Shown in pieces: positions 26,961 to 48,879 of a stretch of DNA of 53,226 nt (position 1 is the first letter of the stretch; each line of letters starts with the position of its first letter). The position numbers and the translations under genes are program-made. Source of the DNA: Candidatus Brocadiia bacterium (lineage in GTDB: Bacteria; Planctomycetota; Brocadiia; CAIUPP01); the NCBI GenBank assembly GCA_050015075.1, contig JBEKCB010000035.1:1-53226 (forward strand). The letters run 5' to 3'. The notes under the pieces are model-generated. The model worked only from the letters and a program-made list of their open reading frames with translations, did no database searches and was not told the origin of the DNA.

Positions 26961-27000
26961 TGGCCGGCAGGATTTGAACCTGCGCCCTTTGGGTTATGAG
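26961..27000 (-). mobile_element. Partial, degenerate tRNA-fMet 3' half; att-site remnant, not a functional tRNA
   Basis: Minus strand reads CTCATAACCCAAAGGGCGCAGGTTCAAATCCTGCCGGCCA: CAT anticodon loop and T-arm present, 5' half missing. Confidence 0.75.
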
Positions 27001-27455
27001 CGGCTTTCGCTCAATTCCCTGCGTCTCATCACACGTCAGAACTTACGTCAACGTCTCGACTTCCATCGAGAGCCTGCCACGTCTATATACATTAATTCGG
27101 CCATATTTTCAAGCTGGCAGGGTACAAAACAGGGAACAGTATTAGAGCCTGGCCAGGGCCTGCCATGAACATCGTGCTCAACCCCGGCGGATTGACTATG
27201 CCGACTGCGTAAGTCCCCTATGTTGCCCGGCTGAGGAACGAGGGCGGAAGCGGTGAGAGAGCGGCAGATTCCCAGGCTTGCCTTATTTTCACTGAAGTAT
27301 CAGAATATCCGCATGTCCTGGCTGGGATGAACATTTCGTTTGTTCTTGTGTGTCTGGAAGGTGTAGAATACCCACATGCGGGTTTGCGCTGGTCGCGAAT
27401 CGTCGGTCATCCGGGAAATCCGGAATTACTGAACTTGGATTGCAGCGGGGTCGGC

Positions 27456-27905
27456 ATGCCTGACGGAAGCCCTCGGTACAGGCCGAATACTCCCAAGGTC
27501 ATCTACGAGACCTACGACGACGAAGTCGTCCTCATCAATATGGACAGCGGAAACTACTACAGCCTGAACCGGTCGGCGGGGCGAGCGTGGGCGAGCATCG
27601 AGCGGCGCATCACGGCGCAGGAAATCGCGCAGGACTTGCGCCGCGACTATGCCTGTGACGGCGCCCAAGTCGAGGAGGAAGTCCTCCGCTTCGTCAAGGA
27701 ATTGTGTCAGGAAGGTCTCATCGTGCCGGATGAAGAGGCGGCTCCCGCCTCTGCGGCGTCCGCGGCTGCGCCCGCCGCGCAGAGGCTGCCCTTTGACCCG
27801 CCCGTCCTCCAGAAGTTCAGCGACATGGCCGACCTGCTCCTGCTGGATCCCATTCACGAGGTGGACGAAAACGGCTGGCCCCACCAGCCGCCGCCCGGGA
27901 ACTGA
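27456..27905 (+). CDS. PqqD-family RiPP recognition element (RRE) fused to a leader/precursor-like C-terminal peptide
   Basis: DDEVVLINMDSGNYYSLN..A..AW...V.RFV.EL..EGLI RRE signature, Ala-rich linker, then FDPPVLQKFSDMADLLLLDPIHEVDENGWP. Confidence 0.85.
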   Translation: MPDGSPRYRPNTPKVIYETYDDEVVLINMDSGNYYSLNRSAGRAWASIERRITAQEIAQDLRRDYACDGAQVEEEVLRFVKELCQEGLIVPDEEAAPASAASAAAPAAQRLPFDPPVLQKFSDMADLLLLDPIHEVDENGWPHQPPPGN

Positions 27906-27908
27906 TCT

Positions 27909-28994
27909 ATGTCCGGCCTTCGCGCGGATCCATACTCGTCCGCTCCGGCTGCGAGCGTCGTTCCCGAGTCATTCTTCGAGACTCTTCGCGACACGTTCGA
28001 GCAAGCGGGCGCGCGGGCGGGATCGTCGGAGCGCTGGTTCACCATCGGCGGCGAGACCGTGAGGCTGCGCTTCGCCGGTCCGGCGCTGCAACCGCTGATC
28101 GTGCCGGCCCTGGAGCACCTGGCCGCCGGCCCTGCGGATGCGCCGGCGCTGACGGTCTGCTTCTGGGACAGCGCCTCGACGGACACACGCATGCCGGCCC
28201 CGCCGTGGCCGACCACGGCTTACGGCCAGCGCGGCGAGATCGCCGGCTACAATACGGAGCGCTTCCGCACCGTCTATCAGCACGGCGTCAACGCGCTCCA
28301 CATGTTCGATGCGCGCAGGCGCACCGCGCTCTACTGGGTGGCCAGGCCCGGCCAGATACCGTACTGGGAGCGCAGTTTCCCCATGCGCACGATCCTGCAC
28401 TGGTGGACGCAGGGGCGGGCGCTGCAGTTGATGCACGCCGGCGCGGTCGGCGGACCGTCGGGCGGAGCGCTGATCGCCGGCAAGAGCGGTTCGGGGAAGT
28501 CCACGACCACGCTCGCCTGCCTCGATGCCGGGATGATGTACGCCGGGGACGACTACGTCCTCGCTCGTGTTGAGCCCGAGCCGCTGGTCCATAGCCTCTA
28601 CGGCACGGCCAAACTCGCGCCGGACAACCTGCGCCGCTTCCCGCATCTACGGCGGTTCGTGAGCAATCCCGACAACCTGGAAAAAGAGAAGGCGATGATC
28701 TTTCTGAAGGACGTCTGCCCCGCGCAGTTGGCGCGGGGCTTTCCCATCCGCGCCCTCCTGCTCCCGCGCGTCACCGGCCTTCGCGACACGACGCTTCGGT
28801 GCGCCACGCCTATCGCCTGTCTCGAAGCCCTCGCCCCGACCACGATCCTACATCTTCCCGGCGCCAGCCATGACGCCTTCGGGAAAATATCCCTGCTTTC
28901 CAGGAGCGTCCCGGGATATATTCTCGATGCCGGCACGGACTTGGAGCAGATACCGCAGGTCATCCGGAGGCTTCTCGAAGAGGGACCGTCATGA
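27909..28994 (+). CDS. HPr kinase-related serine kinase
   Basis: MHAGAV, Walker A GKSGSGKST, GDDYV. Confidence 0.8.
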   Translation: MSGLRADPYSSAPAASVVPESFFETLRDTFEQAGARAGSSERWFTIGGETVRLRFAGPALQPLIVPALEHLAAGPADAPALTVCFWDSASTDTRMPAPPWPTTAYGQRGEIAGYNTERFRTVYQHGVNALHMFDARRRTALYWVARPGQIPYWERSFPMRTILHWWTQGRALQLMHAGAVGGPSGGALIAGKSGSGKSTTTLACLDAGMMYAGDDYVLARVEPEPLVHSLYGTAKLAPDNLRRFPHLRRFVSNPDNLEKEKAMIFLKDVCPAQLARGFPIRALLLPRVTGLRDTTLRCATPIACLEALAPTTILHLPGASHDAFGKISLLSRSVPGYILDAGTDLEQIPQVIRRLLEEGPS

Positions 28995-30412
28995 GCGCCG
29001 GCAAACCGCTGGTCAGCGTCATTATCCCCGCTTACAATGCGGCGCAATTTCTGCGCGAGGCGGTCGCCAGCGTCCGCGCTCAGGGATACGGCCCCATCGA
29101 GATCGTCATCGTGGATGACGGCTCGACCGACAACACCGCCGAAACGATCCAATCACTCGGCGAGGGCATCTGCTATGTCCGGCAGGCCAATGCCGGCCCG
29201 GCCGCGGCGCGCAACCGCGGCCTGGCCGAGGCGCGCGGGGAGTGGATCGCGTTCCTCGACGCCGACGATCTCTGGCCCATGGATAAACTGAGGGTGCAGG
29301 CAGCGCGGCTGGAGGCCGATCCCTTGCTGGAGGTGGTGCTGGGCCGGGTTCAGTACCGTCACGAACCGGGTGTGGCGAAGGCCGACCTCCGATATGAAGG
29401 GCCGGATGACACCCTCGTCAATGTTCACCTCGGCAGCGGCTTGTACCGGCGGACGGTGTTCGACAGGGTCGGACTCTTCAACCCGACCCTGCGGTTCAGC
29501 GAGGACCACGATTGGTTCCTCCGCGCGCGAGAGCTCGCTGTGCGCATGACGATTCTGCCCCAGGTCACACTCCTCTACCGATTGCACGGGAAGAACATGA
29601 CCCGCACTGAGCCGACGGGAGACTACAACCTCCTCAAAGTGCTCAAGGCGTCGCTCGACCGCCGCCGCGCGGCGGGAGGAGGCCAGGTTTGCCCGGTGCC
29701 TCGCTTCGCCGATTGCGACGAGGCCAACCGCAACCTGGTCAGTTGCATCGTCCCCGTGTGGAACGGCGGGAAGTATATCGCCACAGCCCTGCAGAGCATC
29801 CTGGATCAAACCTGGACGCGGAATGAGATTATCGTCATTGACGACGGCTCGACCGACGACAGCGTTCAGGCCGCGCGCCGCGCCGCGCCGCAGGCGGCGG
29901 TCTATTCCCAGCCGAATGCCGGTCCGGGCGCGGCGCGTAACCGGGGCGTCGAACTGGCCAAAGGGGCGTTCCTGGCCTTTCTGGACGCCGATGATCTCTG
30001 GTCCCCTGAAACGCTCAGCCGACAGATGTCGGCCTTTGAAAAAGAACCGACGCTCGACATGGTGTTCGGCCAGGTGGAACAGTTCTGCAGCCCGGAGTTG
30101 ACCGCCGCCGAGAAGGCGAAATGGGGCAACGTCGGGGGCGTCATGCGGGCGCACCACGTCGGCGCGATGCTCATCCGCCGCGAGTCCTTCCTTCGCGTCG
30201 GGCCCTTTCCCGCCCAGCGACGCGTGGGTGAATTCGTCGAGTGGTACGCGCTGGCGCGCGACACGGGCCTGCGCGAGGTGATGCTGTCCGACGTGTCCCT
30301 GCGGCGCCGCGTACACGGCGGGAACTCCGTCCTCCGAGAACGCGCCAGCCATTCCGACTACGTCCATATCGTCAAGAGCGCCCTCGATCGCCGGCGGAAA
30401 GCGGCGCCGTGA
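28991..30412 (+). CDS. Tandem double-domain GT2 glycosyltransferase
   Basis: Two copies of VS.I.P..N / DDGSTD / N.G..AARNRG / AFLDADDLW; ATGA coupling to the kinase. Confidence 0.92.
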   Translation: MSAGKPLVSVIIPAYNAAQFLREAVASVRAQGYGPIEIVIVDDGSTDNTAETIQSLGEGICYVRQANAGPAAARNRGLAEARGEWIAFLDADDLWPMDKLRVQAARLEADPLLEVVLGRVQYRHEPGVAKADLRYEGPDDTLVNVHLGSGLYRRTVFDRVGLFNPTLRFSEDHDWFLRARELAVRMTILPQVTLLYRLHGKNMTRTEPTGDYNLLKVLKASLDRRRAAGGGQVCPVPRFADCDEANRNLVSCIVPVWNGGKYIATALQSILDQTWTRNEIIVIDDGSTDDSVQAARRAAPQAAVYSQPNAGPGAARNRGVELAKGAFLAFLDADDLWSPETLSRQMSAFEKEPTLDMVFGQVEQFCSPELTAAEKAKWGNVGGVMRAHHVGAMLIRRESFLRVGPFPAQRRVGEFVEWYALARDTGLREVMLSDVSLRRRVHGGNSVLRERASHSDYVHIVKSALDRRRKAAP

Positions 30413-30500
30413 TGGCGAGCGTGCCCGCCGCGGACATTCGCCGGGACCGAGCGGCTTGTCCAGGACCGACGTGAGCGGATTGCAGAGGCGATCCGAGAGA

Positions 30501-32144
30501 ATGGAAAAGGTCATGGATCATCGCAGGTGGCTCGAATGGGACAAAGCTTGCTGCTGGGTCATGGCGGGAATCGTCGCGTTCGCACTCAGCATTCGCCTGA
30601 TGGGTTTGAGCAAGGGGATATGGCTTGACGAGGCGGCATTGCTGCGCGGGATACTCGGGAGGAGCGTCTTGGGGACACTTCGCGCCCTGAGAGGCTATCC
30701 CCAGCCGCCGCTGATGTTCGTATTGCTGAACCTGTGGTCCCGGATGGGGACTTCCGAAGCCTTCTTGAGGCTCCCCGCGGTGATCTTCGGCGTCGGCACG
30801 GTGGCTGCGGTGGTGGTCTGGATGAAATCCTACTCGCGGGCGGCGGGCATCCTGGCGGGAATCTGCGCCGCGGCGACGCCGATATTCCTTCGATACTCGC
30901 AGGAGATACACGGTTACCCGCTCCTCCTGTTTGCCACGGCGCTGGCCTTCCTCTTCGCTTCACGCGTGGCCAGCCGGCCTGAGCAGGCGTACGGATACGT
31001 CGGCATCGCGTTCAGTCTGGCGCTGGCCGTCTCCACGCATCTGGCCGGGATCATGCTCATCCCGCCGCTCTGCGTATTCATCGCGCTGACGACCCCGGAC
31101 CGGAAGTCCGTTCGTTGGGGCGGCGCTCTTCTGGCCATCGTCGTGCCGTGCCTGATCTTCGCCTTTATTTGGTTTGTTTACCTCCACAAGATTGGTGACG
31201 TGAAGCGGACGTGGTGGATGCCGCCGGTTTCCATGGAGCTGGTGGCAACCATGTCGCGATCTCTCTTTGGCGTGGCGGTGTTGTCGTGGATTTCGACGCC
31301 CTTCCAGGACCGCATGCCCGCCCTGGCTTTCTGCGTTGAGCTCTCTGCGAAGTGTCTGCTGCTCGCGTGGCTTGCCGTCCTGGTCGCGCGCGGCGATTGG
31401 CGACGCACCTTCCCCTTCCTGGTGGCTGCCGCCATCTATTGGGCGGAGATCATTGGCTATTCCATCCTGGACACACCGATCTTCTGGGACCGGATACTCT
31501 TGCCGAGCATGGTGCCGCTCATCGGGTTCATCGCCTTGCAGATCGTGACGATTCGAGAGGCGCCGCTCAAAACAGCCTCGACAGTCGTTCTCGTCCTGCT
31601 GGCTTTGGCCTTCACGGCAAAGTGGGTCGCCGTAGATGCTCACAAGCCCCATGAGGGATGGAGAGAGGCCGGTGCGGCGTTGGCGTCCCAGCGCCGGCCG
31701 AATGACTTGGTCGTTTTCTATCCCTCTTATGCGGGTATCCCGATCAGGTTCTACGTTCCCGACTTGTCGGCGCGGGCGACGATGGAGATTCCGATCGGCG
31801 ACGATCCCGACGCACTGGCGTCCAAAATCCATGATAAGCTCGCCGCCTTGGATGAGGACGGAAAGCCCGCTGCCGTATTCCTGGTCCTCCGCCCGGACTT
31901 GAATACTTTCCGGGATCAGGTTACCTATCACCGGCTATTGTCCGTCCTGGCCGCCCGTCGCACGAGGCTGTCCCGCCCGGAAAAGGTCATCGCCGTGTGG
32001 GGGCTGGCGCCCAAGGGAAGGGCCGGAGGAGTGTACCGGGAGGAGCTGACGCCTTTGTTGGAATCTGAATTCGGGCATCCTGCTTCAGCGCTGGACCGGG
32101 AGATGTTTACGATGTTCGAATATGGGCCTCGCGGCAACGAGTAG
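30501..32144 (+). CDS. GT-C fold membrane glycosyltransferase (PMT/ArnT-like, GT39/83)
   Basis: GIWLDE, QPPL, LRLP, YSQE..YP motifs and many hydrophobic helices. Start uncertain (30456 or 30501). Confidence 0.75.
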   Translation: MEKVMDHRRWLEWDKACCWVMAGIVAFALSIRLMGLSKGIWLDEAALLRGILGRSVLGTLRALRGYPQPPLMFVLLNLWSRMGTSEAFLRLPAVIFGVGTVAAVVVWMKSYSRAAGILAGICAAATPIFLRYSQEIHGYPLLLFATALAFLFASRVASRPEQAYGYVGIAFSLALAVSTHLAGIMLIPPLCVFIALTTPDRKSVRWGGALLAIVVPCLIFAFIWFVYLHKIGDVKRTWWMPPVSMELVATMSRSLFGVAVLSWISTPFQDRMPALAFCVELSAKCLLLAWLAVLVARGDWRRTFPFLVAAAIYWAEIIGYSILDTPIFWDRILLPSMVPLIGFIALQIVTIREAPLKTASTVVLVLLALAFTAKWVAVDAHKPHEGWREAGAALASQRRPNDLVVFYPSYAGIPIRFYVPDLSARATMEIPIGDDPDALASKIHDKLAALDEDGKPAAVFLVLRPDLNTFRDQVTYHRLLSVLAARRTRLSRPEKVIAVWGLAPKGRAGGVYREELTPLLESEFGHPASALDREMFTMFEYGPRGNE

Positions 32145-32168
32145 GCGGCCATTCGGGGAAGCGAAGAA

Positions 32169-33320
32169 ATGGGGAGTCCTCCCACCTTGGCGGGCGATTT
32201 CCGGCCCACACCGACGCAGGAGTTGCTCCTGCGCGCCGCGTTGCTTTCCGGAACCGAGGCCGCCGGCGCATGGAGACAGTGGCGCGCTTGCGCCGACCTG
32301 GACCATCTTGATCCGGGTTCCTTTCGCCTTCTGCCGCTGCTGTACCACAATCTGAAGGCGCAAGGCATCAGCGACCCGCTGATGAACAAACTGAAGGGCA
32401 TTCATCGCATGGCCTGGTGCAGGAACCAGGACCTGCTCGAACGGTTCGCATTGCTGCTCAACGCCTTGCACGAGGAGCGCATCGGCACCATGGTTCTCAA
32501 AGGCGCGGCGGTAACGCTGCTTCACTACCGCGACCACGGCCTGCGCCCGATGCAGGACCTGGACATCCTCGTTCGCCCCGAAGCGGCGCCCGCGGCCACC
32601 GCGCTGCTGGAGCGGCTGGGCTGGAAGCCGCAGCAGGCGCTGCCCGAGGGCGGACGCGCGAGCTTCTTCCAAATGGTCCACTCCATTTCCTTCGCCGATG
32701 CCGCCCGCCGCGAGTGCGACCTGCACTGGCATGTGCTGACCGAGTGTTGCTACCCGCGGGCCGACGACGACTTCTGGGAAGCGTCAGCGCCCCTCGATGT
32801 GCACGGCGCGCAAACGCGGGCGCTCTGCCCGGCGGACCAGTTGCTGCACGTCTGCGTTCATGGCGCCCGGTGGAACGCGATCGTGCCGATCCGCTGGGTG
32901 GCCGATGCGATGGTCATCCTGCGCACGTCGCCTGAACTCGACTGGCATCGTCTCGTCGCGCAGGCTCGCGAGCGGCGCATCGTCCTGCCGCTGCGCGAAA
33001 CGCTGCAATACTTGCGGGACCATCTCAACGCGCCCCTGCCGGCAGGAACCATGCAGGAGTTGGCATCGCTTTCGGTGCGGCCTGTCGAGCGCTTGGAATA
33101 CCGCGCCCGCATCCGCCGGCCGGGAAGGCTCGGATTCCTGCCTGAGGCGTGCCTTCGACACCTGGCCTACGGCCGCTCTCTCGGCCGGGGCAGTGTTGTC
33201 GCCAACTTCCTCACGCTGCCCCGCGCGCTGCAGCACTTCTGGCAGGCAGACCACCTGTGGCAGGTGCCGTATTGCGCCGTCGCCAAGAGTTTGAAGAGAG
33301 TAGCGCCGCGCAAGTTCTGA
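32169..33320 (+). CDS. Uncharacterised nucleotidyltransferase (NTP_transf_5 family)
   Basis: VLKGAA, RPMQDLDILV, DLHW, LLHVCVH, RWVAD. Confidence 0.85.
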   Translation: MGSPPTLAGDFRPTPTQELLLRAALLSGTEAAGAWRQWRACADLDHLDPGSFRLLPLLYHNLKAQGISDPLMNKLKGIHRMAWCRNQDLLERFALLLNALHEERIGTMVLKGAAVTLLHYRDHGLRPMQDLDILVRPEAAPAATALLERLGWKPQQALPEGGRASFFQMVHSISFADAARRECDLHWHVLTECCYPRADDDFWEASAPLDVHGAQTRALCPADQLLHVCVHGARWNAIVPIRWVADAMVILRTSPELDWHRLVAQARERRIVLPLRETLQYLRDHLNAPLPAGTMQELASLSVRPVERLEYRARIRRPGRLGFLPEACLRHLAYGRSLGRGSVVANFLTLPRALQHFWQADHLWQVPYCAVAKSLKRVAPRKF

Positions 33321-33394
33321 AAGGTTTACGAACGGCAGCCTTTAGGATGAACGGCTGCGGCAAGGGAGCGCGCTATAATCTGAGATTTGCCATT

Positions 33395-34618
33395 TCATAT
33401 TCTGGAGACGCGAACCTTCCGACTGTGTGCGTCCGAGGACTTTCTGCCGCCCTGGCCGGCGCATATCTTTCGCAGCACTTCCACAAAGCGTTGGGCAACC
33501 TTGTCAGGAGAAACTTCAGTCATGCAATGCGCGATTTCAGCGCTGCGGTCCTCGTTGAACTTCGCAGGGGCCTCCGCCATTGCCCGAGGGAGCGCTTCCG
33601 CGTCAGCAGGATCGTAGAGGGTCGCTGCAAAGCCGTCGCTGACTGAGGCGGGCGCGCAGTTGCGCGACGCAATTACCGGCCGGCCGAATGAGAGCGCGAT
33701 CATTGTTGCGCCTGATGTGTATTGACCTTTCCCGGCTGAGACGACTACGTCGCTCGCTTTCATGAGAGTGGCCAGGTCATCTTCAGGAATCTTGCGAAAG
33801 TCACATATTATTTGCGGGTCAGCCGCGATCAACTCCTGAATTCTCCGCGCATACTCTTCGTCGAAGGGCCAGCCGGCGACGATGAGTCGGTCAGAGGGCC
33901 TCCTCATCCGCCTGAAGGCGGCGATCACAGTGTCAATTCCTTTGTACGGACGAATAAGCCCGAAGACCAGAAAAACGAACGCCCCGGAAGGAATGCCCAG
34001 GCGTAAGCGCGCGTCGTCCTTCCTGATGGTATCCCGATACACGCCCACGTAGCTCATATGCGGAACCACGTAGGCGGGGCGCCGCAAACGGAATTCATGT
34101 TTTACGGCATCCAGCATCCGTTGATCGTGCGCAATGACTGCGTTTGCGAAAGCGAGGGTGACAACACGACCCAGCCATTCAAGGCGCCGGTACTTCATAT
34201 CGTGGGGATACAGGTTGTGCGCCATCCACACTATCTTTGTTCGACGCAGGCGAACCAGCAGCAGGAACAAGGAGTAGCGCGCGAGGCTTTTCAGAAAACG
34301 CCAGCGCGAGGCGCCTCCGTAGTGGTAGCTCGGCCAGCCCAAGTGAAGAATATCATCCCTAATGGCTCGGCGCATAAGCCATAGCGGTCGAACGCCGGGC
34401 CACTCTTCGACTTGAAGCCGGCCCCATTTCCGAGCCCCGAACAATAAATCCAAATATGGATGCACGACAGGGGACCGGTCGGTGAAAATCGCCATGCGGA
34501 TGGGAACGTCGGAGATCTGAGACCCCGCTCGATCGTCAGAACCAGTGCGCAAGGATACAGCGTTTCCTTCCGGCTTTGGCAGGCCCGGCTGTTCAGGCTG
34601 ATGAATAGAGCTGGTCAC
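33395..34618 (-). CDS. GT4 glycosyltransferase
   Basis: HNLYPHD, FGLIRPYKG, ASDVVV, TSG...ALSFGRPVIA; lower GC than neighbours. Confidence 0.85.
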   Translation of the reverse strand: MTSSIHQPEQPGLPKPEGNAVSLRTGSDDRAGSQISDVPIRMAIFTDRSPVVHPYLDLLFGARKWGRLQVEEWPGVRPLWLMRRAIRDDILHLGWPSYHYGGASRWRFLKSLARYSLFLLLVRLRRTKIVWMAHNLYPHDMKYRRLEWLGRVVTLAFANAVIAHDQRMLDAVKHEFRLRRPAYVVPHMSYVGVYRDTIRKDDARLRLGIPSGAFVFLVFGLIRPYKGIDTVIAAFRRMRRPSDRLIVAGWPFDEEYARRIQELIAADPQIICDFRKIPEDDLATLMKASDVVVSAGKGQYTSGATMIALSFGRPVIASRNCAPASVSDGFAATLYDPADAEALPRAMAEAPAKFNEDRSAEIAHCMTEVSPDKVAQRFVEVLRKICAGQGGRKSSDAHSRKVRVSRI

Positions 34619-34877
34619 CGCTTACTGCTTTCCCTCGGTGTCTTCCACGAGAGCTGCGACAAATCTTACACTTACCCACAGACAGCCGCAAGAGGGCGAC
34701 ACAACGACCGTAACGGTGGTTCGGGATGCCGCCGGTCCGGTTGACTTGACGCATCGTGAATTGTTTAATGCGACGAGCAACTGAGAGGTTTTTGCGAGGC
34801 GGGCTGGCGGTTCCCAGTGCGATACCGGATCGAGGTGGGCATCTCGATTTCCCGGTTTTCCGTAGGAGAGGCCACAC

Positions 34878-35687
34878 TTGTCCGACGTCATTCGCCCTCC
34901 GCAGGCTCCCTGTTACCCCGACCTCAAAGGCAAGAGCGCGCTCGTAACGGGCGGCGGCAGCGGCATCGGACGCGGCATTTGCCTGCGCCTGGGCGCCGAA
35001 GGGATGCGCGTGTTCTTATGCGGCCGGACCGAGAAGACCATTCAAGAAACCGCCGAGTTGGTGCGCGCCGAAGGAGGCGAGGCCGTGCCCTTCGTCGCGG
35101 ACCTGTCGCAACCGGAGCAGATCGAGCGCCTGTTCGAGCAACTCTACGTTGTGTGCGAATCGCTCGACGTGCTTGTCCACAATGCCGCCAGAAAGGGCGG
35201 CGGCCCGCTGCAAACGCTCAACCTGGACTTGTGGCGGGCGTTCATGACGACCAACCTCGACAGCGCCTTTCTTCTGACGAAGAAGGCGTGCGAGACGATG
35301 ATCCCGCGCAAGTCCGGGAGCATCATCTTCATATCCACCATCGGCGGGTTGCGCCCGCATTACCACATGGTCCCTTACGACACCAGTAAATCGGGCATGG
35401 ACGGGTTCACGCGCGCGGCGGCCATCGAGTTGGCGGAACACGGCATACGAGTGAACGCCGTCGCACCCGGGGCGATTGCGACGGGCGGCCCGGTCTTCAA
35501 AAAAGAGATTCCTTCGAGCCACCTCGCACACGCCCATGTACCATTGAGGCGCAGGGGAGTTCCGGCGGAAATTGCAGCGTGCGTAGCCTTCCTGGCCAGC
35601 GCGCAGGCCGAATACATCGTCGGGCAGACGGTCTATGTGGATGGCGGCGCAACGGTTCAGCTGCACCCGCGCAGCAGCCCTATATGA
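34878..35687 (+). CDS. SDR family oxidoreductase (FabG-like)
   Basis: TGGGSGIG, HNAA, YDTSK, IRVNAVAPG, VDGG; TTG start after AGGAGAGG. Confidence 0.9.
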   Translation: MSDVIRPPQAPCYPDLKGKSALVTGGGSGIGRGICLRLGAEGMRVFLCGRTEKTIQETAELVRAEGGEAVPFVADLSQPEQIERLFEQLYVVCESLDVLVHNAARKGGGPLQTLNLDLWRAFMTTNLDSAFLLTKKACETMIPRKSGSIIFISTIGGLRPHYHMVPYDTSKSGMDGFTRAAAIELAEHGIRVNAVAPGAIATGGPVFKKEIPSSHLAHAHVPLRRRGVPAEIAACVAFLASAQAEYIVGQTVYVDGGATVQLHPRSSPI

Positions 35688-35700
35688 CGTGCCTTTCGAT

Positions 35701-37132: not shown

Positions 37133-40039
37133 ATGACGGTCGCCGAGTTCATCTCTATCTGGCAGAAAGCCGACCTGACTGAGCGTTCCGGTTGCCAGCA
37201 GCATTTCTGCGGCCTCTGCCGACTCCTCGGCCACCCGGAGCCGGCCGAAATGGACCCGAAGGGCGAGTTTTTCACCTTCGAGCGCGGGGCGGAGAAGAAC
37301 ACCGGCGGCGACGGTTTTGCCGATGTCTGGAAGAAGGGATGTTTCGGCTGGGAGTACAAGGGCAGGCACAAGAACCTCGACGCCGCGTACCAGCAGCTTC
37401 TGACCTACCGCGAGGACCTGGAAAACCCGCCTCTCCTCGTCGTCTGCGACATGGAGCGGATCGTCATCCGCACGAACTTCACCAACACCCCCATGGTGAC
37501 GCACGAGATTGCGCTGGCCGACCTCTCCAAACCCGAGAGCCTGGCACTGCTGCGCAACGTCTTTTTCGAGCCGGAAAAGCTCAAGCCGGGCGTCACGATC
37601 CAGTCCATCACCACCGAGGCGGCGCGGCGCCTGGGGGAGATTGCCCAGTCCATGCGCAAGCGCGGCCTGCCGGCGCTCGACGTGGCCCACTTCCTGGACC
37701 GGATGATTTTCTGCCTCTTCGCCGAAGACGTGGGATTGTTGCCGAAGGGCCTTTTCAGCAAAGTCCTGAAAAACTCCGAGGGCGATCCGGCGCGCTTCCG
37801 CAAGACCGTCGCGCAACTTTTCGAGGCGATGGCCGATGGCGGTCTTTTCGGGGCCGACAAGATTCTTCACTTTAACGGCAACCTCTTCGCCGACGCCACC
37901 GTGCTCGACATGGAAGCCGAAGAGATCGAGCGGATCGCGGAGATTTCCACCCTCGACTGGAGCGCCGTGGACCCCAGCATCTTCGGCACCCTGTTCGAAC
38001 GCGGACTGGACCCGGACAAACGCTCGCAATTGGGCGCACATTACACCAGCCGAGAGGACATCGAAGTCCTCGTCGAGCCGGTCGTCATGCAGCCCCTGCG
38101 CCGGGAGTGGCAGGAGATTCGGCAGACCTGCGACAACCTCCTGTCCACCGGCAAGAAGGACCCGGCGCCTGAGGATGCCGGGAAGAAGCTCTCGCCGGCG
38201 GTTCGCAGCAAGGCCGCCAAGCAGGCCAAGGCGATGATCGGGCAGTTTCTCCACATGAGCCTGCCTTCCCTCAAGGTGCTCGACCCCGCCTGCGGATCGG
38301 GCAATTTTCTCTACGTCACCCTACAGAAGCTCAAGGACCTGGAAAAGGAAGTCGTCCTCTACGGCGCGCGCAACGGCATGGGCGGGTTCCTGCCGATGGT
38401 CGGGCCGTGGCAGCTCTACGGCATTGAGATCAACCCCTACGCCTATGAGCTGGCACAGATGACCGTCTGGATCGGCTACCTGCAATGGGTCCGCGACAAC
38501 GGCCTCGGCAACGTCGGCGAACCCGTCCTTCGCAAGCTCGACAACTTCAAGTGCATGGACGCCATCATTGACCTGCGCGACCCGAACACTCCGAAGGAGC
38601 CGGAGTGGCCGAAAGTGGATTACATCATCGGAAATCCACCGTTCTTGGGCGGGAAGATGCTGCGCCGGGAACTGGGCGACGAGTACGTTGACCGCATGTT
38701 GGCGCTCTGGCGGGAACGAGTGCCCGCCGAGGCGGACCTGTGCTGCTACTGGTTTGAGAAGGCGCGGAGCCAGATCGAAAAGGGCCTGTGCAAACGCGCC
38801 GGCCTTCTCTCGACGCAGGGCATCCGCGGCGGCGCAAACCGGGAAGTGCTCAAACGCATCCAGATGACCGGCGGCATTTTCTTCGCCGAGAGCGACCGCG
38901 CGTGGGTCCTGGACGGGGCGAATGTTCACATCTCCATGATCGGGTTCGACTCAGGCGACGAAAAGGTACGGACGCTTGATAGCCTGAAGGTGACCACTAT
39001 CAACCCGAACCTCTCTGCACAAGCGGACATCAGCCTGGCAAAACGTCAGGCTGCAAATCTCGATATCGGATTCATGGGCGACACCAAAGTAGGCCCCTTC
39101 GAAATCGCGGAGGAAAAAGCTCTCGCAATGCTTTCGTCGCCAAACCCGCGCGCAAGCCCCAACAGCGATGTTGTGCGACCTTGGGTGAATGGCTTGGACG
39201 TTACGCGGCGACCTCAGAACATCTGGATCGTGGACTTTCCGCCCACTACCACCGAGGACGACGCCGCGTTTTATGAGGCTCCTTATGAATACGTAAAAAC
39301 GAATGTGAAGCCGATGCGGGCGACCGCACGCAGCGGAGACCGTACCGGGGTATCATGGTGGATTCACCAGCGACCGCGCCCTGACATGCGCCACGCTATA
39401 GAGAAACTCCCGCGATTCCTGTGCACTGCCCGAGTTTCCAAACACAGGCTGTTCGTGTGGCTCGAACCCTTTTCGCTACCAGACTGCCAGGTCATCGTCT
39501 TCGCCCGTTCCGACGACTACTTCTTCGGCGTCCTGCACTCGCGGCTGCAGGAGGTGTGGGCGCTGAAATTGGGAACGCGGCTTGAGACGCGGCCCCGCTA
39601 CACGCCGACCACCTGCTTCGAGACCTTCCCGCTGCCGAAGCCCACACCGGACCAGGAGAAGGCCATCGCCGATGCGGCGAAGGAACTGAACGCGCTCCGC
39701 AACAACTGGCTCAATCCGGCTGACTGGATGAAGGAGGAGATTCTGGAATTCCCAGGCTCGGTCAACGGTCCCTGGGCGCGATATGTGGTGAACCCGAACG
39801 ACAAGGGCATCGGCACCGTGCGCTACTGCCGGCTGGTTCCGAAGGATGAAGCCAACGCGAAGCTCCTCGCCAAGCGCACGCTGACGAACCTCTACAACAC
39901 CCGCCCCGACTGGCTCAAGCTGGCGCACCAGAAGCTCGACGAGGCCGTCTTCGCCGCCTACGGCTGGAGTCTCACTCTGACCGACGAACAGCTTCTGGAA
40001 TCTCTCCTCGCCCTCAATCAGCAGCGTGCGGGGCAATAA
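37133..40039 (+). CDS. MmeI-like type IIL/IIG restriction-modification enzyme (fused endonuclease, m6A methyltransferase and TRD)
   Basis: GFADVWKKGCFGWEYK (PD-ExK-like), IFGTLFE, LGAHYT, LDPACGSGNFL, GNPPF, PRYTPTTCFETFP, AHQKLDEAVFAAYGW. Confidence 0.9.
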   Translation: MTVAEFISIWQKADLTERSGCQQHFCGLCRLLGHPEPAEMDPKGEFFTFERGAEKNTGGDGFADVWKKGCFGWEYKGRHKNLDAAYQQLLTYREDLENPPLLVVCDMERIVIRTNFTNTPMVTHEIALADLSKPESLALLRNVFFEPEKLKPGVTIQSITTEAARRLGEIAQSMRKRGLPALDVAHFLDRMIFCLFAEDVGLLPKGLFSKVLKNSEGDPARFRKTVAQLFEAMADGGLFGADKILHFNGNLFADATVLDMEAEEIERIAEISTLDWSAVDPSIFGTLFERGLDPDKRSQLGAHYTSREDIEVLVEPVVMQPLRREWQEIRQTCDNLLSTGKKDPAPEDAGKKLSPAVRSKAAKQAKAMIGQFLHMSLPSLKVLDPACGSGNFLYVTLQKLKDLEKEVVLYGARNGMGGFLPMVGPWQLYGIEINPYAYELAQMTVWIGYLQWVRDNGLGNVGEPVLRKLDNFKCMDAIIDLRDPNTPKEPEWPKVDYIIGNPPFLGGKMLRRELGDEYVDRMLALWRERVPAEADLCCYWFEKARSQIEKGLCKRAGLLSTQGIRGGANREVLKRIQMTGGIFFAESDRAWVLDGANVHISMIGFDSGDEKVRTLDSLKVTTINPNLSAQADISLAKRQAANLDIGFMGDTKVGPFEIAEEKALAMLSSPNPRASPNSDVVRPWVNGLDVTRRPQNIWIVDFPPTTTEDDAAFYEAPYEYVKTNVKPMRATARSGDRTGVSWWIHQRPRPDMRHAIEKLPRFLCTARVSKHRLFVWLEPFSLPDCQVIVFARSDDYFFGVLHSRLQEVWALKLGTRLETRPRYTPTTCFETFPLPKPTPDQEKAIADAAKELNALRNNWLNPADWMKEEILEFPGSVNGPWARYVVNPNDKGIGTVRYCRLVPKDEANAKLLAKRTLTNLYNTRPDWLKLAHQKLDEAVFAAYGWSLTLTDEQLLESLLALNQQRAGQ

Positions 40040-42827: not shown

Positions 42828-44387
42828 ATGAAAACGACTCTGGGGTCGGTGGGCGTGACTTTGGCGGCGGTGACGGGGCTGGCGGCCGTGCTCGGGACGG
42901 GTTCTGCGGCGTTGGCGCAGGAAGAGCGCACGCCGGACGCCCTCTTCCAGCAGATCGTCCGCGAAACCACTGCGACCATCGCCAAGGACGGCGCCGGCGA
43001 GCTGTTCGGCTGGAACGTCAGCTACTACGCCGGCGGCTTCGTGGCGGGCTACCAGCGCACGAAGGACACCGCGTGGCTCGATGGCGCGCAGAAGGTCTCC
43101 GAGTACTGCATCAGCAAGATGCGCGCCGGCCCTGACGGCTACAAGGGGTGGGTCGGCGAGGACCAGACCGACCGCGGCACCTGGGCGGACACGCACGTGG
43201 GCGATGCGATCATCGTCGCCCACATGCTGAGTTTTTCCGAACTCGTCCTGAAAGACCCCGAGCTGAAGAAGAAGTACGGCGACGCCGCCCAGAAGTACGT
43301 GGACCTGGCCAGGCGCGAGCTGTTCGAGAAGTGGGAAAAGCGCGGCACGTGGAAGGAAGATCGCGCCTGGGGTTGCTACGTCGCCTGGGACATGAACTGC
43401 ACGCAGGCCCATCCCGATGTCTGGAAGAAGGACACGATGCCGTGCATCAACCTGCCCTTCAATAAGAACAACAGCCTGGGCGTCTGCGCCCTTCGCCTCT
43501 ACCGCATCACCGGCGACGACAAATGGCGCGACCACGCCTTCAAGATCTTCGCGTTCACCAAGAGCCGCTTCCAGCTCGTGGACGAAGCCGGCTTCAGCTA
43601 CTACAACTGGGACTACTGGGAAGCCTTCGGCCCCGAGAGCGTGGACCTGGCCAAGCACGACACGCGCCACTGGATGAACGTACACCCCGGCCGGCCCTAC
43701 GCCGCGGGCGAGGTCGGCCAGATGGTCGAGGCCTACAACACCGGCGTCGTGTTCGACAAGACCGACATCGAGCGGTTCATCAATACCAATCTCAAGATCA
43801 TGTGGAACGGCGACAAGGCCAACCCCCACTACTCGAACTCCAACTGGAAGCTCCCCATGCCGCTCGGGCCCGATGGCAAGCCGCTCCCGCCCGAGGTCAA
43901 CAGCGCCGCCGCTCGGCTTTGGACCGGCCTGTCGCAGTTCAGCCAGGAGATCCGGGATTTAGAGGGCGGCCGCGGCGGACGCGGACGCCGCCCGGCGGCC
44001 GATCGCCCCATCACCTTCGACCGCCTCTATTGTGCCGAGAAGGATGCGAAAATTTTCGACTGGCCCTACTATCATTCCTGCAAGAGCCTGACGGTCGCTG
44101 CCGTCCTGCCCAGTATCGTCAAGAAAGGCAACTCGGCCATCCTCCTGTGCAAGGCGCGCACCCCGCAGGACCCCTTCGAGATCGCCCTCTACAGCGCGGA
44201 CGGCAAGGAGAAGATCCTGGTCATCCATCAGGGCAAGATTGACGGCGGCCTGGATGGTCACGCGGGCATCTTCATCCTCCCGTGGGATCCGGCCTCCAAC
44301 AAGGACACGCCGCTGAAGGGCGACTATCGGGTCCGCTGGACGGGCGTGGACGGCTTCCGAGAGTTCCCCCTTACGATCACGGAGTAG
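42828..44387 (+). CDS. Secreted hypothetical protein, possibly an (alpha/alpha) toroid carbohydrate-active fold
   Basis: Long high-GC3 ORF with AGGAG RBS and signal peptide; YQRTKDTAWLD and LYRITGDDKW helical-hairpin motifs. Confidence 0.6.
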   Translation: MKTTLGSVGVTLAAVTGLAAVLGTGSAALAQEERTPDALFQQIVRETTATIAKDGAGELFGWNVSYYAGGFVAGYQRTKDTAWLDGAQKVSEYCISKMRAGPDGYKGWVGEDQTDRGTWADTHVGDAIIVAHMLSFSELVLKDPELKKKYGDAAQKYVDLARRELFEKWEKRGTWKEDRAWGCYVAWDMNCTQAHPDVWKKDTMPCINLPFNKNNSLGVCALRLYRITGDDKWRDHAFKIFAFTKSRFQLVDEAGFSYYNWDYWEAFGPESVDLAKHDTRHWMNVHPGRPYAAGEVGQMVEAYNTGVVFDKTDIERFINTNLKIMWNGDKANPHYSNSNWKLPMPLGPDGKPLPPEVNSAAARLWTGLSQFSQEIRDLEGGRGGRGRRPAADRPITFDRLYCAEKDAKIFDWPYYHSCKSLTVAAVLPSIVKKGNSAILLCKARTPQDPFEIALYSADGKEKILVIHQGKIDGGLDGHAGIFILPWDPASNKDTPLKGDYRVRWTGVDGFREFPLTITE

Positions 44388-44397
44388 GAGGTCACGC

Positions 44398-45810
44398 ATG
44401 CCGAAGACCGAGTTCCCCAAGTCTTTCCTGTTCGGCGCGGCCACTGCGGCCTATCAGATCGAAGGCGCCGTTCATGAGGACGGCCGGGGAGAGTCCATCT
44501 GGGACCGCTTCTCCCACAAGAGCGGGACCATCAAGAACGGCGACACCGGCGATGTGGCCTGCGACAGCTACCACCGCGTTGACGAAGACATCGCCCTGAT
44601 GAAGAACACGGGCCTTCAGGCCTACCGGTTCAGCATCGCCTGGCCGCGGGTTGTCCCCGACGGCGACGGCGCGGTGAATCCCAAAGGCCTGGACTGGTAC
44701 TCGCGCTTCGTGGACAAGCTGCTGGCCGCCGGAATCCGGCCCTTCGCCACGCTGTATCACTGGGACCTGCCGCAGGCGCTGGAGGATAAGTACGGCGGCT
44801 GGCGCAGCCGCAAGACAAGCGAGGCCTTCGGGCGATACTCCGAAGCCGTCGTCCGACGACTGGGCGACCGCGTCAAGGACTGGATGCCGATCAACGAGAT
44901 GCCCGCCGTCATCGTCGCCGGCTATGGCTGGGGCCGTCACGCGCCCGGCATTGTCGAGACCCGCGCCGGCCTCAACCGCATCCAGCACAACGTTCTGCTT
45001 GCCCACGGCTACGGCGTCCGCGCCGTCCGCGAGTCCGGGCGGCGCGGCTGCCGGGTCGGCACCGCGATCAACCCGCGCTGCTATGTTCCCCTGTGCGACA
45101 GCAAGCCCGACCATGTCGAAGCCGCCGCCAAGGCCTTCGCCCACTTCAACGGCCCCATCCTCGACAGCATCACGTTCGGCCGCTACCCCGAGAAGTGGAT
45201 CGCCGGACTCGGCGCCGATGCTCCGGCCGTCGAACCGGGCGACATGGAACTGATCTCCTCCCAGTGCGACTTCATCGGCCTGAACATCTACAGCGGCTCC
45301 TACGTCCGCCCGCCGTCGGAAGCTCCCGGCGCGAAGGCCATCCCGCCAGGCAACCTGGGGATTCCGAGCCTCGCCCTCGACCCGACGCCGGCCGATGGAT
45401 TCCTCGAAATCGCAATGCCCGCAGGCTATCCCAAGGCCGGCGGCATTAACATGCTTCCCCAGGCCATTTACTGGGGCGTGCGACACGCCGTGCAGGTCTA
45501 CGGCTATAAGAAGGTCTACATCACCGAGAACGGCTGCCCCTTGCAGGATCAGTTGGTCAACGGCGAAGTCCAGGACCTGGAACGCGTCCTGTACTATCGC
45601 CTGCATCTCCAGTCCGCGGCGCGGGCCGTGGCGGAGAAACTGCCGCTCAAGGGCTACTTCATCTGGTCGCTGCTGGACAACTTCGAATGGAGCGTGGGCT
45701 ACAGCGAGCGGTGCGGCTTCCACTACGTGGACTACGCCACCCAGAAGCGCACCCCGAAATTCAGCGCCGGATACTACGCCGCCTGTATCGCCGCGCGGCG
45801 AGTGGTGTAG
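44398..45810 (+). CDS. Beta-glucosidase, glycoside hydrolase family 1
   Basis: FLFGAATAAYQIEG, YRFSIAWPR, TLYHWDLP, INE acid/base, ITENG nucleophile, WSLLDNFEW. Confidence 0.95.
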   Translation: MPKTEFPKSFLFGAATAAYQIEGAVHEDGRGESIWDRFSHKSGTIKNGDTGDVACDSYHRVDEDIALMKNTGLQAYRFSIAWPRVVPDGDGAVNPKGLDWYSRFVDKLLAAGIRPFATLYHWDLPQALEDKYGGWRSRKTSEAFGRYSEAVVRRLGDRVKDWMPINEMPAVIVAGYGWGRHAPGIVETRAGLNRIQHNVLLAHGYGVRAVRESGRRGCRVGTAINPRCYVPLCDSKPDHVEAAAKAFAHFNGPILDSITFGRYPEKWIAGLGADAPAVEPGDMELISSQCDFIGLNIYSGSYVRPPSEAPGAKAIPPGNLGIPSLALDPTPADGFLEIAMPAGYPKAGGINMLPQAIYWGVRHAVQVYGYKKVYITENGCPLQDQLVNGEVQDLERVLYYRLHLQSAARAVAEKLPLKGYFIWSLLDNFEWSVGYSERCGFHYVDYATQKRTPKFSAGYYAACIAARRVV

Positions 45811-45858
45811 AGGGGCAGCGGCGGATTGCAAGCTAATGAGTTGCAAGCCGTTTCAAGC

Positions 45859-45927
45859 TGGTCGGGGCAACTGGCGCAAGTTTGAACCGTCTGCCACAAC
45901 CGTTGTGCCGTTCGTATCTCTATTCCT
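45859..45927 (+). repeat. Cassette left-flank motif, copy B (tRNA-Pro-like att core plus recombinase-tail-like codons)
   Basis: TGGTCGGGGCAACTGG...TTTGAACC resembles the reverse complement of a tRNA-Pro acceptor/T-arm; homologous to 17736-17800. Confidence 0.65.
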
Positions 45928-45934
45928 GCTGCCA

Positions 45935-46723
45935 TCAGGGCCGAACATCCAGCTGGGGTGGTAATTCGTCCTGCAACTCCTCCGCGCGACTGCGCGCGGC
46001 AAGAGCTTGTAGTTGGATTATCATGAGCCATTCGCAGAGCCACTTGAGAAATCCAGGAGTTGCAACAATCACGCCGCCTTCGTCATCACGAAAAGCAATA
46101 CCCGCGATAGACATGGAGAACGTACCGTGGGAAAGCGCATTCCTGATCCGGCGCACATAATCAGCATTCAGGAGTTTCCGGATGCGACCACAGCACGGCT
46201 TGCGAGCCGCTGCACCTTGCGCAATCAAGCTCGATAAAGGACCCTCGCGCATGTAAACTAACGCCAAGTAGAGTCGCAGCACCAAGGACCCCACCATTGT
46301 AATGCGAACCCGTACCGGAAGCGGGAGGTCCATCGCTGCGTCGAAAGGTGTGCGTGGTAGTCCGTTCCGGCGCTGATCGAGCGAGGCCGCCAAACTAAAC
46401 CAGAAAACTCCGTTTGCAAGGTCATCGAAATCATCGAATCGCGCCGCTGGCGAAGTAGTTAACTCTCGCAACAATTCTTCTGAAGTGAGGCGACTTGTGA
46501 GATCGTCAAGAATCTCACGGCAAACCCCGAATTGCCTGCGCACCTCTAAGTCATCGAGAACAGCGTGCAGATCGTTGATATCCTGAACAGGGACGATCAG
46601 ATTTGCAGGGAGAACACCTGCGTCGAAGCCCTCGGACGGCCCCTCATCGGCAACGCCATATGTGGAATAGAACCGTCGGAGGAGGTCGACAACATCTCTG
46701 ACTTCGGCGTCTCCGTTTGTCAA
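45935..46723 (-). CDS. HEPN-domain-like protein; cassette cargo
   Basis: C-terminal RRIRNALSHG (RxxxxH); lower GC; TTG start behind GGGGAGG. Confidence 0.65.
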   Translation of the reverse strand: MTNGDAEVRDVVDLLRRFYSTYGVADEGPSEGFDAGVLPANLIVPVQDINDLHAVLDDLEVRRQFGVCREILDDLTSRLTSEELLRELTTSPAARFDDFDDLANGVFWFSLAASLDQRRNGLPRTPFDAAMDLPLPVRVRITMVGSLVLRLYLALVYMREGPLSSLIAQGAAARKPCCGRIRKLLNADYVRRIRNALSHGTFSMSIAGIAFRDDEGGVIVATPGFLKWLCEWLMIIQLQALAARSRAEELQDELPPQLDVRP

Positions 46724-46811
46724 TCCGGTTGCCTCCCCTGCAAGTTTGAACGGTTCTGCTTTGACGGACGCATTGTAACCCGCTTGCAGAAATGAAGAAA
46801 GCCCTGTGCCT
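46721..46811 (-). promoter_or_regulatory. Shared cassette leader, copy B
   Basis: 69/91 identical to 18347-18437; TACAAT, GGGAGG, TTG. Confidence 0.8.
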
Positions 46812-46827
46812 CATCGGCACAGGGCTT
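46799..46827. terminator. 12-bp perfect hairpin between the cassette leader and the att-like core
   Basis: AAGCCCTGTGCC-TCATC-GGCACAGGGCTT. Confidence 0.65.
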
Positions 46828-46837
46828 CTGATGCAAC

Positions 46838-46917
46838 ATGGTCGGGGCGGGCGGGCATGTAGCCTACAGGTGGAGTTCACCGCCAAGGACCTGGCCCGCT
46901 TCGCGGCGTAACGAACC
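46838..46917 (+). repeat. att/recombinase-tail-like repeat, copy 2 (homologous to 209-286)
   Basis: Matches 209-286; translates GRGGRACSLQVEFTAKDLARFAA-stop with no upstream gene body. Confidence 0.8.
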
Positions 46918-48656: not shown

Positions 48657-48879
48657 TTGCTGGACCAAGGCCGGCGCGGTGTGCGTTTCCCGCGTCCGGC
48701 CGGCGGTCGGCGGCAAGCGCCATCTGAACCCGTGACGGAGGTGCAAGACGCAGAGCACGGCTCGTCCCCGACGGCGTGAGACTCCCCCATGGACATGGAT
48801 ATGGACACGGTCGCACCGGGACGGAGGATGCTCCTGCGTCCACGAGAGCTATCATTAACTAATGTGGAGCGAGCGCGCC

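What the first reader, a model, noticed from the sequence alone, without database searches (positions are those of the whole stretch)
27456..33320. RiPP-like operon: RRE fused to its own leader/core peptide, with kinase, glycosyltransferases and nucleotidyltransferase but no lasso cyclase or peptidase
Seen: a PqqD/RRE domain, Ala-rich linker and FDPPVLQKFSDMADLLLLDPIHEVDENGWPHQPPPGN, followed co-directionally by an HprK-like kinase, double GT2, GT-C membrane transferase and NTP_transf_5 protein. Known: (Y/W/F)xxPxL is the RRE-binding motif of lasso leaders, and HprK-like kinases and nucleotidyltransferases tailor paeninodin- and pseudomycoidin-type lasso peptides. Inference: the RRE carries its substrate or an autoinhibitory leader in cis. 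The pathway may make a phospho-glycosylated peptide, or use the protein as a scaffold for surface-glycan assembly. No asparagine-synthetase-like cyclase or B2 protease is present in the cluster.
Basis: partly seen in the sequence, partly recalled or inferred. Interest (0 to 1): 0.75.

Follow-up and report, generated by a model that had tools for sequence, protein, structure and literature searches.

The report
Peptide-binding protein carrying its own peptide
A small bacterial protein that normally grips a separate peptide for chemical tailoring here carries that peptide as its own tail, and it sits with a kinase and sugar-adding enzymes in hundreds of genomes, pointing to an undescribed way of building phosphate-linked sugar chains.

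Summary
A lasso-type RRE (PqqD domain) is joined by a variable linker to a tail more conserved than the RRE: a leader-like FxxPxL followed by DP[IV]H and GWP. The tail profile finds 3,081 clusters at 50% identity, and 542 genome loci were confirmed. In 33 well-covered loci the neighbours are an HprK/PEPCK-fold kinase (32), GT2s (32, three orthogroups) and NTP_transf_5 (29). An MsbA-like exporter occurs in 22 of 80 loci but not in the window. No lasso cyclase, B2 or signal-peptidase-type protease belongs to the cassette. The GT-C is accessory. A complex model supports kinase binding (0.82; best control 0.01), with the tail reaching the P-loop. Closest known: linear polyphosphorylated peptides (LPP, 2026) and pseudomycoidin. 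Differences: fused precursor, no protease, no Ser3 or C-terminal Ser, no invariant hydroxyl. Best reading (0.45): the uncleaved tail is a scaffold on which a phospho-linked oligosaccharide is built. Main rival (0.27): a tethered leader that activates the kinase on another acceptor. No chemistry is shown.

The parts
27456..27905 (+). RRE-tail fusion protein (149 aa), no separate precursor gene needed
   Evidence: start supported by L001
27474..27731 (+). Lasso-B1-type RRE domain (residues 7-92); the Asp that binds the leader Tyr in LppB/TbiB1 (position 75) is Asp in only 4 of 201 relatives
   Evidence: PMC13381572 section 8
27732..27791 (+). Variable linker (residues 93-112; 16-30 residues between positions 89 and 113 in 201 relatives)
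27792..27842 (+). Leader-like segment F113-L129 (FxxPxL, then S/T122 and a short predicted helix 124-127); S122 at 27819-27821 is the only hydroxyl residue from F113 to the end of this copy
27843..27881 (+). Core-like conserved segment L130-P142 with invariant D131, P132, H134 and near-invariant GWP; predicted to lie on the kinase
27909..28994 (+). HprK-related kinase with two-domain PEPCK-like fold and intact catalytic residues; predicted partner of the RRE-tail
28991..30412 (+). Fusion of two GT2 domains, one from each of the two commonest GT2 orthogroups of the cassette
30456..32144 (+). PMT_2 (GT-C) membrane glycosyltransferase; accessory (TTG 30456 or ATG 30501 start)
   Evidence: window 30414-31929 has no counterpart in L001
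32169..33320 (+). NTP_transf_5 (PsmN/LppN-type) transferase with LKG and R-x-x-x-D-x-D motifs
33395..34618 (-). Convergent GT4 glycosyltransferase, shared with L001 only; possibly accessory

Best explanation
The protein is a self-loaded RRE that acts as a reusable or retained scaffold. (1, modelled) The tail's FxxPxL folds back into its own RRE pocket as a fourth strand. (2, modelled) The loaded RRE docks by its beta-sheet on the kinase's C-terminal helices and lays residues 121-144 along the kinase's N-terminal domain up to the P-loop. (3, inferred from BsfK, PsmK, LppK) The kinase phosphorylates the tail. (4, inferred from PsmN) The NTP_transf_5 protein puts a sugar on that phosphate. (5, inferred from three GT2 orthogroups) Two or three GT2s extend it, and locus-specific GT4, GT10, methyl- and sulfotransferases decorate it. 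(6, inferred) With no protease, the tail stays attached; the glycan or glycoprotein is handed on or exported by the MsbA-like ABC where present. The acceptor residue is unresolved. S122 is the only hydroxyl in this copy's tail, but it behaves like a helix N-cap, so the invariant D131 or H134 are the alternatives.
For: Kinase is the next gene in 60 of 80 loci; kinase 32, GT2 32 and NTP5 29 of 33 loci with at least 9 kb on both sides. Complex score 0.82, best of 3 controls 0.01; that mark was reached by 116 of 157 solved and 2 of 215 mismatched pairs (counts hold only roughly with my alignments); runs share at least 81% of contacts, partner pLDDT at least 77; tail residues 121-144 and kinase 192-193 (P-loop) are in the interface. 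Kinase catalytic residues are kept in 66 of 69. GT2 domains fall into three clades: 48 in 42 loci, 47 in 44, 24 in 22, of 124 domains. No second copy of the tail motif in any locus and no convincing separate precursor. Precedent: PsmN needed for hexose on phospho-Ser (PMC6993621, passages); BsfB1 boosts BsfK (PMC10368454, passages); cyclase-free LPP clusters with RRE, kinase, NTP transferase and MsbA-like exporter (PMC13381572).
Against: No invariant hydroxyl: position 122 is S/T in 188 of 199 (N 7, D 3, V 1) and 138 of 150. Of 338 unique tails, 8 lack S/T at both 122 and the residue before GWP, and 3 have none from position 119 on. Four loci without S/T122 keep an intact kinase motif. Residues 122 and 131 are not among the confidently placed contacts (not evidence of absence). 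All characterised kinases of this type that I read about phosphorylate Ser (or Thr), not Asp or His. The window lacks the exporter. The kinase has a PEPCK-like fold, which does not exclude a small-molecule substrate. No step of chemistry was observed.
Confidence: 0.45

Rival explanations
1. The tail is never modified. It is a permanently tethered leader and pseudo-substrate that keeps the RRE folded and switches on or positions the kinase, a natural counterpart of engineered ConFusion enzymes. Kinase, NTP transferase and GT2s then act on another acceptor (sugar, lipid-linked glycan or leaderless proteins) in surface-glycan synthesis.
For: No invariant hydroxyl while kinases stay intact. Tail pairwise identity 0.74 against 0.40 for the RRE and 0.41 for the kinase in 68 loci (inflated by motif-based selection), single copy, no protease: unlike a diversifying core. 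Invariant D131 falls 18 residues after F113, the register of the phosphorylated Ser3 of LPP (Y-16 to S3), as a phospho-mimic would. Seven of 80 loci have ~600-aa kinase ORFs; the one scanned is kinase plus GT2. Neighbours are glycan genes: flippases, epimerases, GT4/10/25, sulfotransferases. LppB is insoluble without its leader (PMC13381572 section 9). ConFusion concept: PMC11002830 passage.
Against: Every characterised lasso-type kinase in the papers read acts on the RRE-delivered peptide. The model brings the tail to the P-loop, which fits a substrate as well as an inhibitor. No alternative acceptor gene is conserved.
Confidence: 0.27
2. It is an LPP-like or cofactor-like RiPP precursor. The tail is phospho-glycosylated and then cut off by an unlinked housekeeping protease, releasing a small conserved glyco-phosphopeptide for export.
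For: Gene set matches LPP apart from the protease. MsbA-like exporter in 22 of 80 loci. Strongly conserved cores and unlinked proteases are known from PQQ and microcin B17 (recalled, no call).
Against: No recurring protease family among the neighbours scanned; M16, M17, M20, M28, M29, M41, M48, S8 and S9 appear only in scattered loci. No Thr(-2) or LPP FET motif. Two relatives carry a 6-residue insertion before DP[V/I]H, breaking a fixed cleavage register. Each product would cost a whole RRE. Exporter absent in the window and in most loci.
Confidence: 0.18
3. It is a lasso-peptide precursor (core starting near L130, ring closed on D137/E138) matured by cyclase and B2 encoded elsewhere in the genome.
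For: FxxPxL in -17/-14/-12 register (numbering) and an acidic residue at core position 8-9. One locus (L023) has a B2 gene 10 kb away.
Against: Three real cyclases hit only one AsnB with a glutaminase domain (L054) and B2 hits only L023, among 80 loci. Position -2 is Leu in 193 of 199, never Thr. Lasso enzymes are normally clustered with the precursor (established knowledge). The rest of the genome was not available.
Confidence: 0.04
4. The tail is a decaying remnant of an ancient RRE-precursor read-through with no current role.
For: Two RRE-selected relatives have a diverged tail.
Against: The tail is more conserved than the RRE, with free synonymous change; 3,081 clusters; predicted kinase interface.
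Confidence: 0.02

Closest known systems
Linear polyphosphorylated peptides (LPP; Paenibacillus alginolyticus lpp; PMC13381572, 2026)
   Same: No cyclase; lasso-type RRE (LppB structure matched at E 2e-6); HprK-like kinase; uncharacterised NTP transferase; MsbA-like exporter; YxxP-type motif; glycan-rich surroundings.
   Different: LPP has a discrete RRE and 1-3 separate precursors with variable cores, an SpI-type leader peptidase and Ser3 as acceptor, and is mostly Bacillota. Here the peptide is fused to the RRE, single-copy and near-invariant; no SpI was found; Asp sits at the Ser3 register; GT2s are core genes; many phyla.
Pseudomycoidin/paeninodin-type phosphorylated, glycosylated lasso peptides (PsmK, PsmN; PMC6993621)
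   Same: Kinase plus NTP_transf_5 pairing; a paeninodin-like cluster's NTP transferase hits 52 of the sequence sources searched, the window included; lasso-B1-type RRE.
   Different: No cyclase or B2, no C-terminal Ser (15 of 199), no Thr(-2); dedicated GT2s present; kinase only distantly related (best E about 1e-4 to 1e-7 with control kinases).
Bsf lasso cluster (Bradymonas; PMC10368454)
   Same: RRE-dependent kinase acting inside the peptide; hydrophobic residue at -2; nucleotidyltransferase in the cluster.
   Different: Bsf has cyclase, B2 and Ser3; here position +3 is an invariant Pro.
Pearlin scaffold peptides and engineered ConFusion enzymes (PMC11002830, passages)
   Same: Conceptual analogues: a peptide used as a reusable scaffold; a leader attached to the machinery.
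   Different: No PEARL ligase or recycling protease; here the leader is fused to a stand-alone RRE, and the chemistry is phosphate and sugar transfer.
HPr-rel-A/B and SynChlorMet cassettes (TIGR04352/3/5, TIGR04248)
   Same: PqqD-family protein with HprK-related kinase, function unknown.
   Different: All models score far below cut-off; those RRE models are 74-84 aa with no tail.

Membership tests
Lasso peptide BGC | RRE of the B1/PqqD type | tested here: met
   PF05402; TbiB1 E 7e-17 and TM 0.89 on target
Lasso peptide BGC | [Y/W/F]xxPxL leader motif | tested here: met
   F113 191, P116 196, L118 189 of 199; no NCBIfam leader model matched the isolated tail at E up to 10
Lasso peptide BGC | Clustered asparagine-synthetase-like cyclase | tested here: not met
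   Three control cyclases: no hit in the window, 1 of 80 loci (an AsnB with GATase domain)
Lasso peptide BGC | Clustered B2 transglutaminase-like peptidase | tested here: not met
   None in the window; 1 of 80 loci, 10 kb away on the other strand
Lasso peptide BGC | Thr (rarely Ile/Val) at leader position -2 | tested here: not met
   L128 is Leu 193, Ile 5, Met 1 of 199; L127 has no Thr either
Lasso peptide BGC | Cyclase or B2 elsewhere in the genome | not testable with these tools
   Only the 53-kb window and loci of up to 20 kb were available
LPP (linear polyphosphorylated peptides) | RRE + HprK-like kinase + NTP transferase, no cyclase | tested here: met
LPP (linear polyphosphorylated peptides) | SpI-type leader peptidase | tested here: not met
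   No S24/S26 family in 73 window ORFs or among 65 cluster representatives and 284 of 330 singleton neighbours; recalled catalytic-Ser motif gave no convincing hit in 5,632 ORFs. No SpI control sequence was used, and my gene caller missed some genes.
LPP (linear polyphosphorylated peptides) | Discrete precursor with YxxPxVLxHQxIxFETxxS and Ser3 | tested here: not met
   Peptide is fused; the residue at the Ser3 register is D131 (199 of 199)
LPP (linear polyphosphorylated peptides) | MsbA-like exporter in the cluster | tested here: inconclusive
   Absent in the window; 22 of 80 loci, many of which are truncated contigs
LPP (linear polyphosphorylated peptides) | Polyphosphorylation of the peptide | not testable with these tools
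   Needs mass spectrometry
HPr-rel-A/B, SynChlorMet cassettes | Members reach TIGR04352/04353/04355/04248 cut-offs | tested here: not met
   27.8 of 35, 34.6 of 100, 25.9 of 200, 13.3 of 200 bits
Pearlin-type scaffold pathway | PEARL (short LanB) ligase in the cluster | tested here: not met
   No LanB-type family among the ORFs scanned

The most novel reading that the evidence does not exclude
The RRE-tail is a protein carrier for glycan assembly, working like an acyl-carrier protein and derived from RiPP parts. It is never cleaved. A PEPCK/HprK-fold kinase primes it on the invariant Asp131 or His134 rather than on Ser, and a phospho-linked oligosaccharide is built on it and then passed on or exported. 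This would be a non-RiPP use of the RRE-leader pair, with new acceptor chemistry, spread over many bacterial phyla.
Probability: 0.15. Interest if true: 0.92.

Novelty: new variant of a known kind. Interest (0 to 1): 0.72.

Why it matters
Because enzyme-recognition element and candidate substrate are one 149-aa protein, it makes two open questions directly testable with four genes: what NTP_transf_5 enzymes transfer (unresolved for PsmN and LppN) and what the link is between phosphorylated RiPP clusters and surface glycans. If the tail is an uncleaved scaffold or a natural tethered activator, it would extend RRE function beyond making released peptides and offer a leader-independent kinase/glycosylation tool.

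Tried and rejected
Standalone precursors: a search for 30-80 aa proteins with the tail found no candidate (weak, since the profile search did return short fragments). Of the top 150 tail-profile hits, 108 have a full RRE, 21 a partial RRE, and 21 none; these 21 mostly start within helix 3 or the linker and look truncated, one looks chimeric. Their genomic context was not checked. A motif scan for short leader-bearing ORFs gave 99 hits, none recurring except internal starts of the fusion itself. An RRE-only search meant to remove tail bias returned just 10 proteins; of the 3 new ones, 2 have a diverged tail and 1 is frameshifted. C-terminal Ser phosphorylation (paeninodin mode) was rejected (Ser last in 15 of 199). 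GT-C as a core gene was rejected. The tail as an RNA/DNA element was rejected (synonymous variation; no Rfam match). NCBIfam and ESM Atlas gave no family for the isolated tail. No phage match; one plasmid locus, in Crinalium. Promoter/terminator scan was at chance level. Pocket covariation is only suggestive: D or E at position 75 in 3 of 6 Tyr-tails against 18 of 193 Phe-tails, and two of the three are close relatives. RRE-kinase distance correlation was modest (rho 0.39; tail-kinase 0.21) and not used. Asp-Pro self-cleavage as a substitute protease (by recalled analogy to GDPH motifs) could not be tested and is left at about 0.03. Literature: ten searches and the LPP supplements showed no description of this fusion; the supplement of PMC12710340 could not be read, one LPP supplement was too large, and most subscription papers are outside the library. 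The metagenome and viral contig collections were not searched, so gene context there is unchecked.
Full report
Observation. The five co-directional genes are present at the stated coordinates. The first encodes 149 aa with PqqD at residues 23-89, a linker and the quoted tail. The next four are an HprK-related kinase, a double GT2, a PMT_2 GT-C and an NTP_transf_5 protein. The start at 27456 is shared with the nearest relative, L001, a MAG titled Candidatus Brocadiia, about 90% identical in DNA over window 27240-35694 except 30414-31929. No cyclase or B2 is in the window: three cyclases and a B2 from annotated or paeninodin-like plasmid clusters hit none of its ORFs. A Pfam scan of 65 further window ORFs, chosen from 158 of 100 aa or more after dropping Arg-rich shadow frames and the cluster itself, found no leader peptidase family.

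The fusion is a family. A protein search gave 632 relatives among 1,177 candidates of 81-261 aa. A 35-position tail profile found 3,081 representatives at E up to 0.001. Among its best 150, 108 have a full RRE, 21 a partial one, and 21 none; the last look like truncated calls, but their contigs were not seen. In 199 unique tails, F113 is kept in 191, P116 in 196, L118 in 189, D123 in 197, M124 in 198, D131, P132 and H134 in all, and G140-W141-P142 in about 186, the rest shifted by one residue. Mean top-residue frequency is 0.84 in the tail, 0.55 in the RRE and 0.30 in the linker. These figures are inflated because the searches used tail words. An RRE-only search gave only three new proteins: two with a diverged tail carrying a 6-residue insertion, and one frameshifted. 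Synonymous codons vary at invariant residues, so the constraint is on protein.

Does the tail bind its own RRE? Not shown, but three lines agree. The RRE is closest to lasso B1 proteins and LppB. F113, P116 and L118 match the Y(-17), P(-14), L(-12) spacing of BsfA (PMC10368454, passages). AlphaFold2 gives a strand at 118-121 with block pLDDT 86 (coordinates not inspected, and RRE-leader complexes are in the PDB, so memory may contribute). The Asp that hydrogen-bonds the leader Tyr in LppB (D70, four residues before F74; PMC13381572 section 8) aligns with position 75, which is Asp in 4 of 201 and Ala, Ser or Gly in 158, fitting a Phe ligand. The linker is never shorter than 16 residues.

Neighbourhood. 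Of 80 loci, 72 have the kinase, 68 GT2 and 54 NTP5; of the 33 with at least 9 kb on both sides, 32, 32 and 29. The kinase is the next gene in 60 of 80 and NTP5 in 9. An MsbA-like exporter occurs in 22 of 80 and not in the window. Of 124 extracted GT2 domains, 119 fall in three clades, mostly one per locus; the window's two domains belong to the two larger clades (FastTree, midpoint root, support 0.85-0.95). Accessory genes are GT4, GT10, GT25, AGE-family epimerases, SDRs, methyl- and sulfotransferases and flippases (65 cluster representatives and 284 of 330 singletons scanned; my gene caller missed genes in GC-rich loci). The window's GT-C has only a 68-aa remnant in L001 and one 22% match in the other loci. 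The only cyclase-like hit is an AsnB with a glutaminase domain in L054; the only B2 is 10 kb from the RRE in L023. The annotated Crinalium plasmid locus shows the same set under generic names.

Kinase. It folds confidently (pLDDT 94) into a two-domain PEPCK-like structure (Foldseek E 2e-11; Z 17.2, rmsd 4.9, 303 aligned; HprK Z 14.1, rmsd 2.6, 134 aligned). The residues shown to matter in BsfK (His, P-loop Lys-Ser, Asp-Asp) are intact in 66 of 69. The complex prediction of kinase with RRE-tail scored 0.82 against a best control of 0.01. The mark was reached by 116 of 157 solved and 2 of 215 mismatched pairs, counts that hold only roughly with my alignments; runs agree in at least 81% of contacts and partner pLDDT is at least 77. 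The RRE sheet (13-36) packs on kinase helices 300-332; tail residues 121-144 touch kinase 94-149 and P-loop residues 192-193. My sequence search of the PDB found no close kinase relative, so recall of a like complex is less likely but not excluded. Interface residues are no more conserved than the kinase average (0.53 against 0.55). The model supports binding; it does not show it.

The acceptor problem. Known relatives phosphorylate a C-terminal Ser (Psm) or Ser3 (Bsf, LPP). Here the last residue is Ser in 15 of 199, and the Ser3 register holds D131 or P132. S122 is this copy's only hydroxyl from F113 on. Position 122 is S/T in 188 of 199, but its substitutes are mainly Asn and Asp and it precedes a predicted helix, the pattern of a helix N-cap (inference from established knowledge). 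Four loci lacking it keep intact kinases; 8 of 338 tails lack S/T at both candidate sites. So either S/T122 is the usual but not universal site, or the invariant D131 or H134 is the acceptor, or the tail is not modified.

Mechanism and rivals. I favour an uncleaved scaffold: cis loading (modelled), kinase docking (modelled), phosphorylation, PsmN-like sugar transfer and GT2 extension (all inferred by analogy), 0.45. A tethered activator acting on another acceptor gets 0.27; an LPP-like released peptide cut by an unlinked protease 0.18; a lasso made in trans 0.04; a remnant 0.02.

Comparison and novelty. It works most like LPP (PMC13381572; outline, sections 6-9 and 12, passages read, six supplements searched for five terms) and pseudomycoidin (PMC6993621, nine passages). 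It fails membership of both: no SpI or discrete Ser3 precursor, no cyclase, B2 or Thr(-2). The RRE-Finder papers (PMC7470986, abstract and twelve passages; PMC12710340, passages and sections 6-7, supplement unreadable) do not mention this fusion in what I read, though the second notes that 21% of PF05402 proteins are longer than a discrete RRE with no other domain. Ten literature searches found no description; subscription papers and unread supplements could hold one. Verdict: real, widespread, apparently undescribed architecture within a known kind of kinase/NTP-transferase RiPP-like system; new variant, interest 0.72, with about 0.15 chance of being a categorically new glycan-carrier protein.

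Noticed in passing
window 26961-27001 (- strand): By eye resembles the 3' half of a tRNA (CAT anticodon, T-arm, CCA end), single copy in the window, about 240 bp before homology with L001 begins (27240). ARAGORN and Rfam found nothing. Could be an attachment-site remnant marking the cassette's edge.
   Followed up: partly
window 49462-52844 (- strand): Partial type I-C CRISPR-Cas: Cas3 (50541-52844), Cas5d (49806-50516) and only a 120-aa ORF with a weak Cas8c/Csd1 match; no array among repeats in 44000-53226.
   Followed up: partly
window 37133-40039 (+): MmeI-like type IIL restriction-modification protein, 968 aa.
   Followed up: no
window 48309-48366: Five copies of a 9-bp unit encoding an Asp/Ser/Asn-rich stretch in a lower-GC region.
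   Followed up: no
L023:2-433 (-), Oscillatoria sp. PCC 10802: A lasso B2 (Transglut_core3) gene 10 kb upstream of the RRE-tail cassette, probably a separate lasso cluster beside it, as described for LPP and paeninodin.
   Followed up: no
L082:5292-12544 (Paenibacillus cellulosilyticus plasmid record, unannotated there): Complete paeninodin-like lasso cluster (NTP transferase, cyclase, precursor at 8729-8914, kinase, RRE, B2, ABC); used as control.
   Followed up: partly
L016:28-4296 and L018:9180-10715: NRPS/AMP-binding genes lie next to the RRE-tail cassette in a few loci; no evidence of linkage.
   Followed up: no
L005, L007, L017, L021, L027, L049, L058: Kinase ORFs of about 600 aa; L017:6042-7868 is a kinase-GT2 fusion. 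L015 has a triple GT2 fusion.
   Followed up: partly
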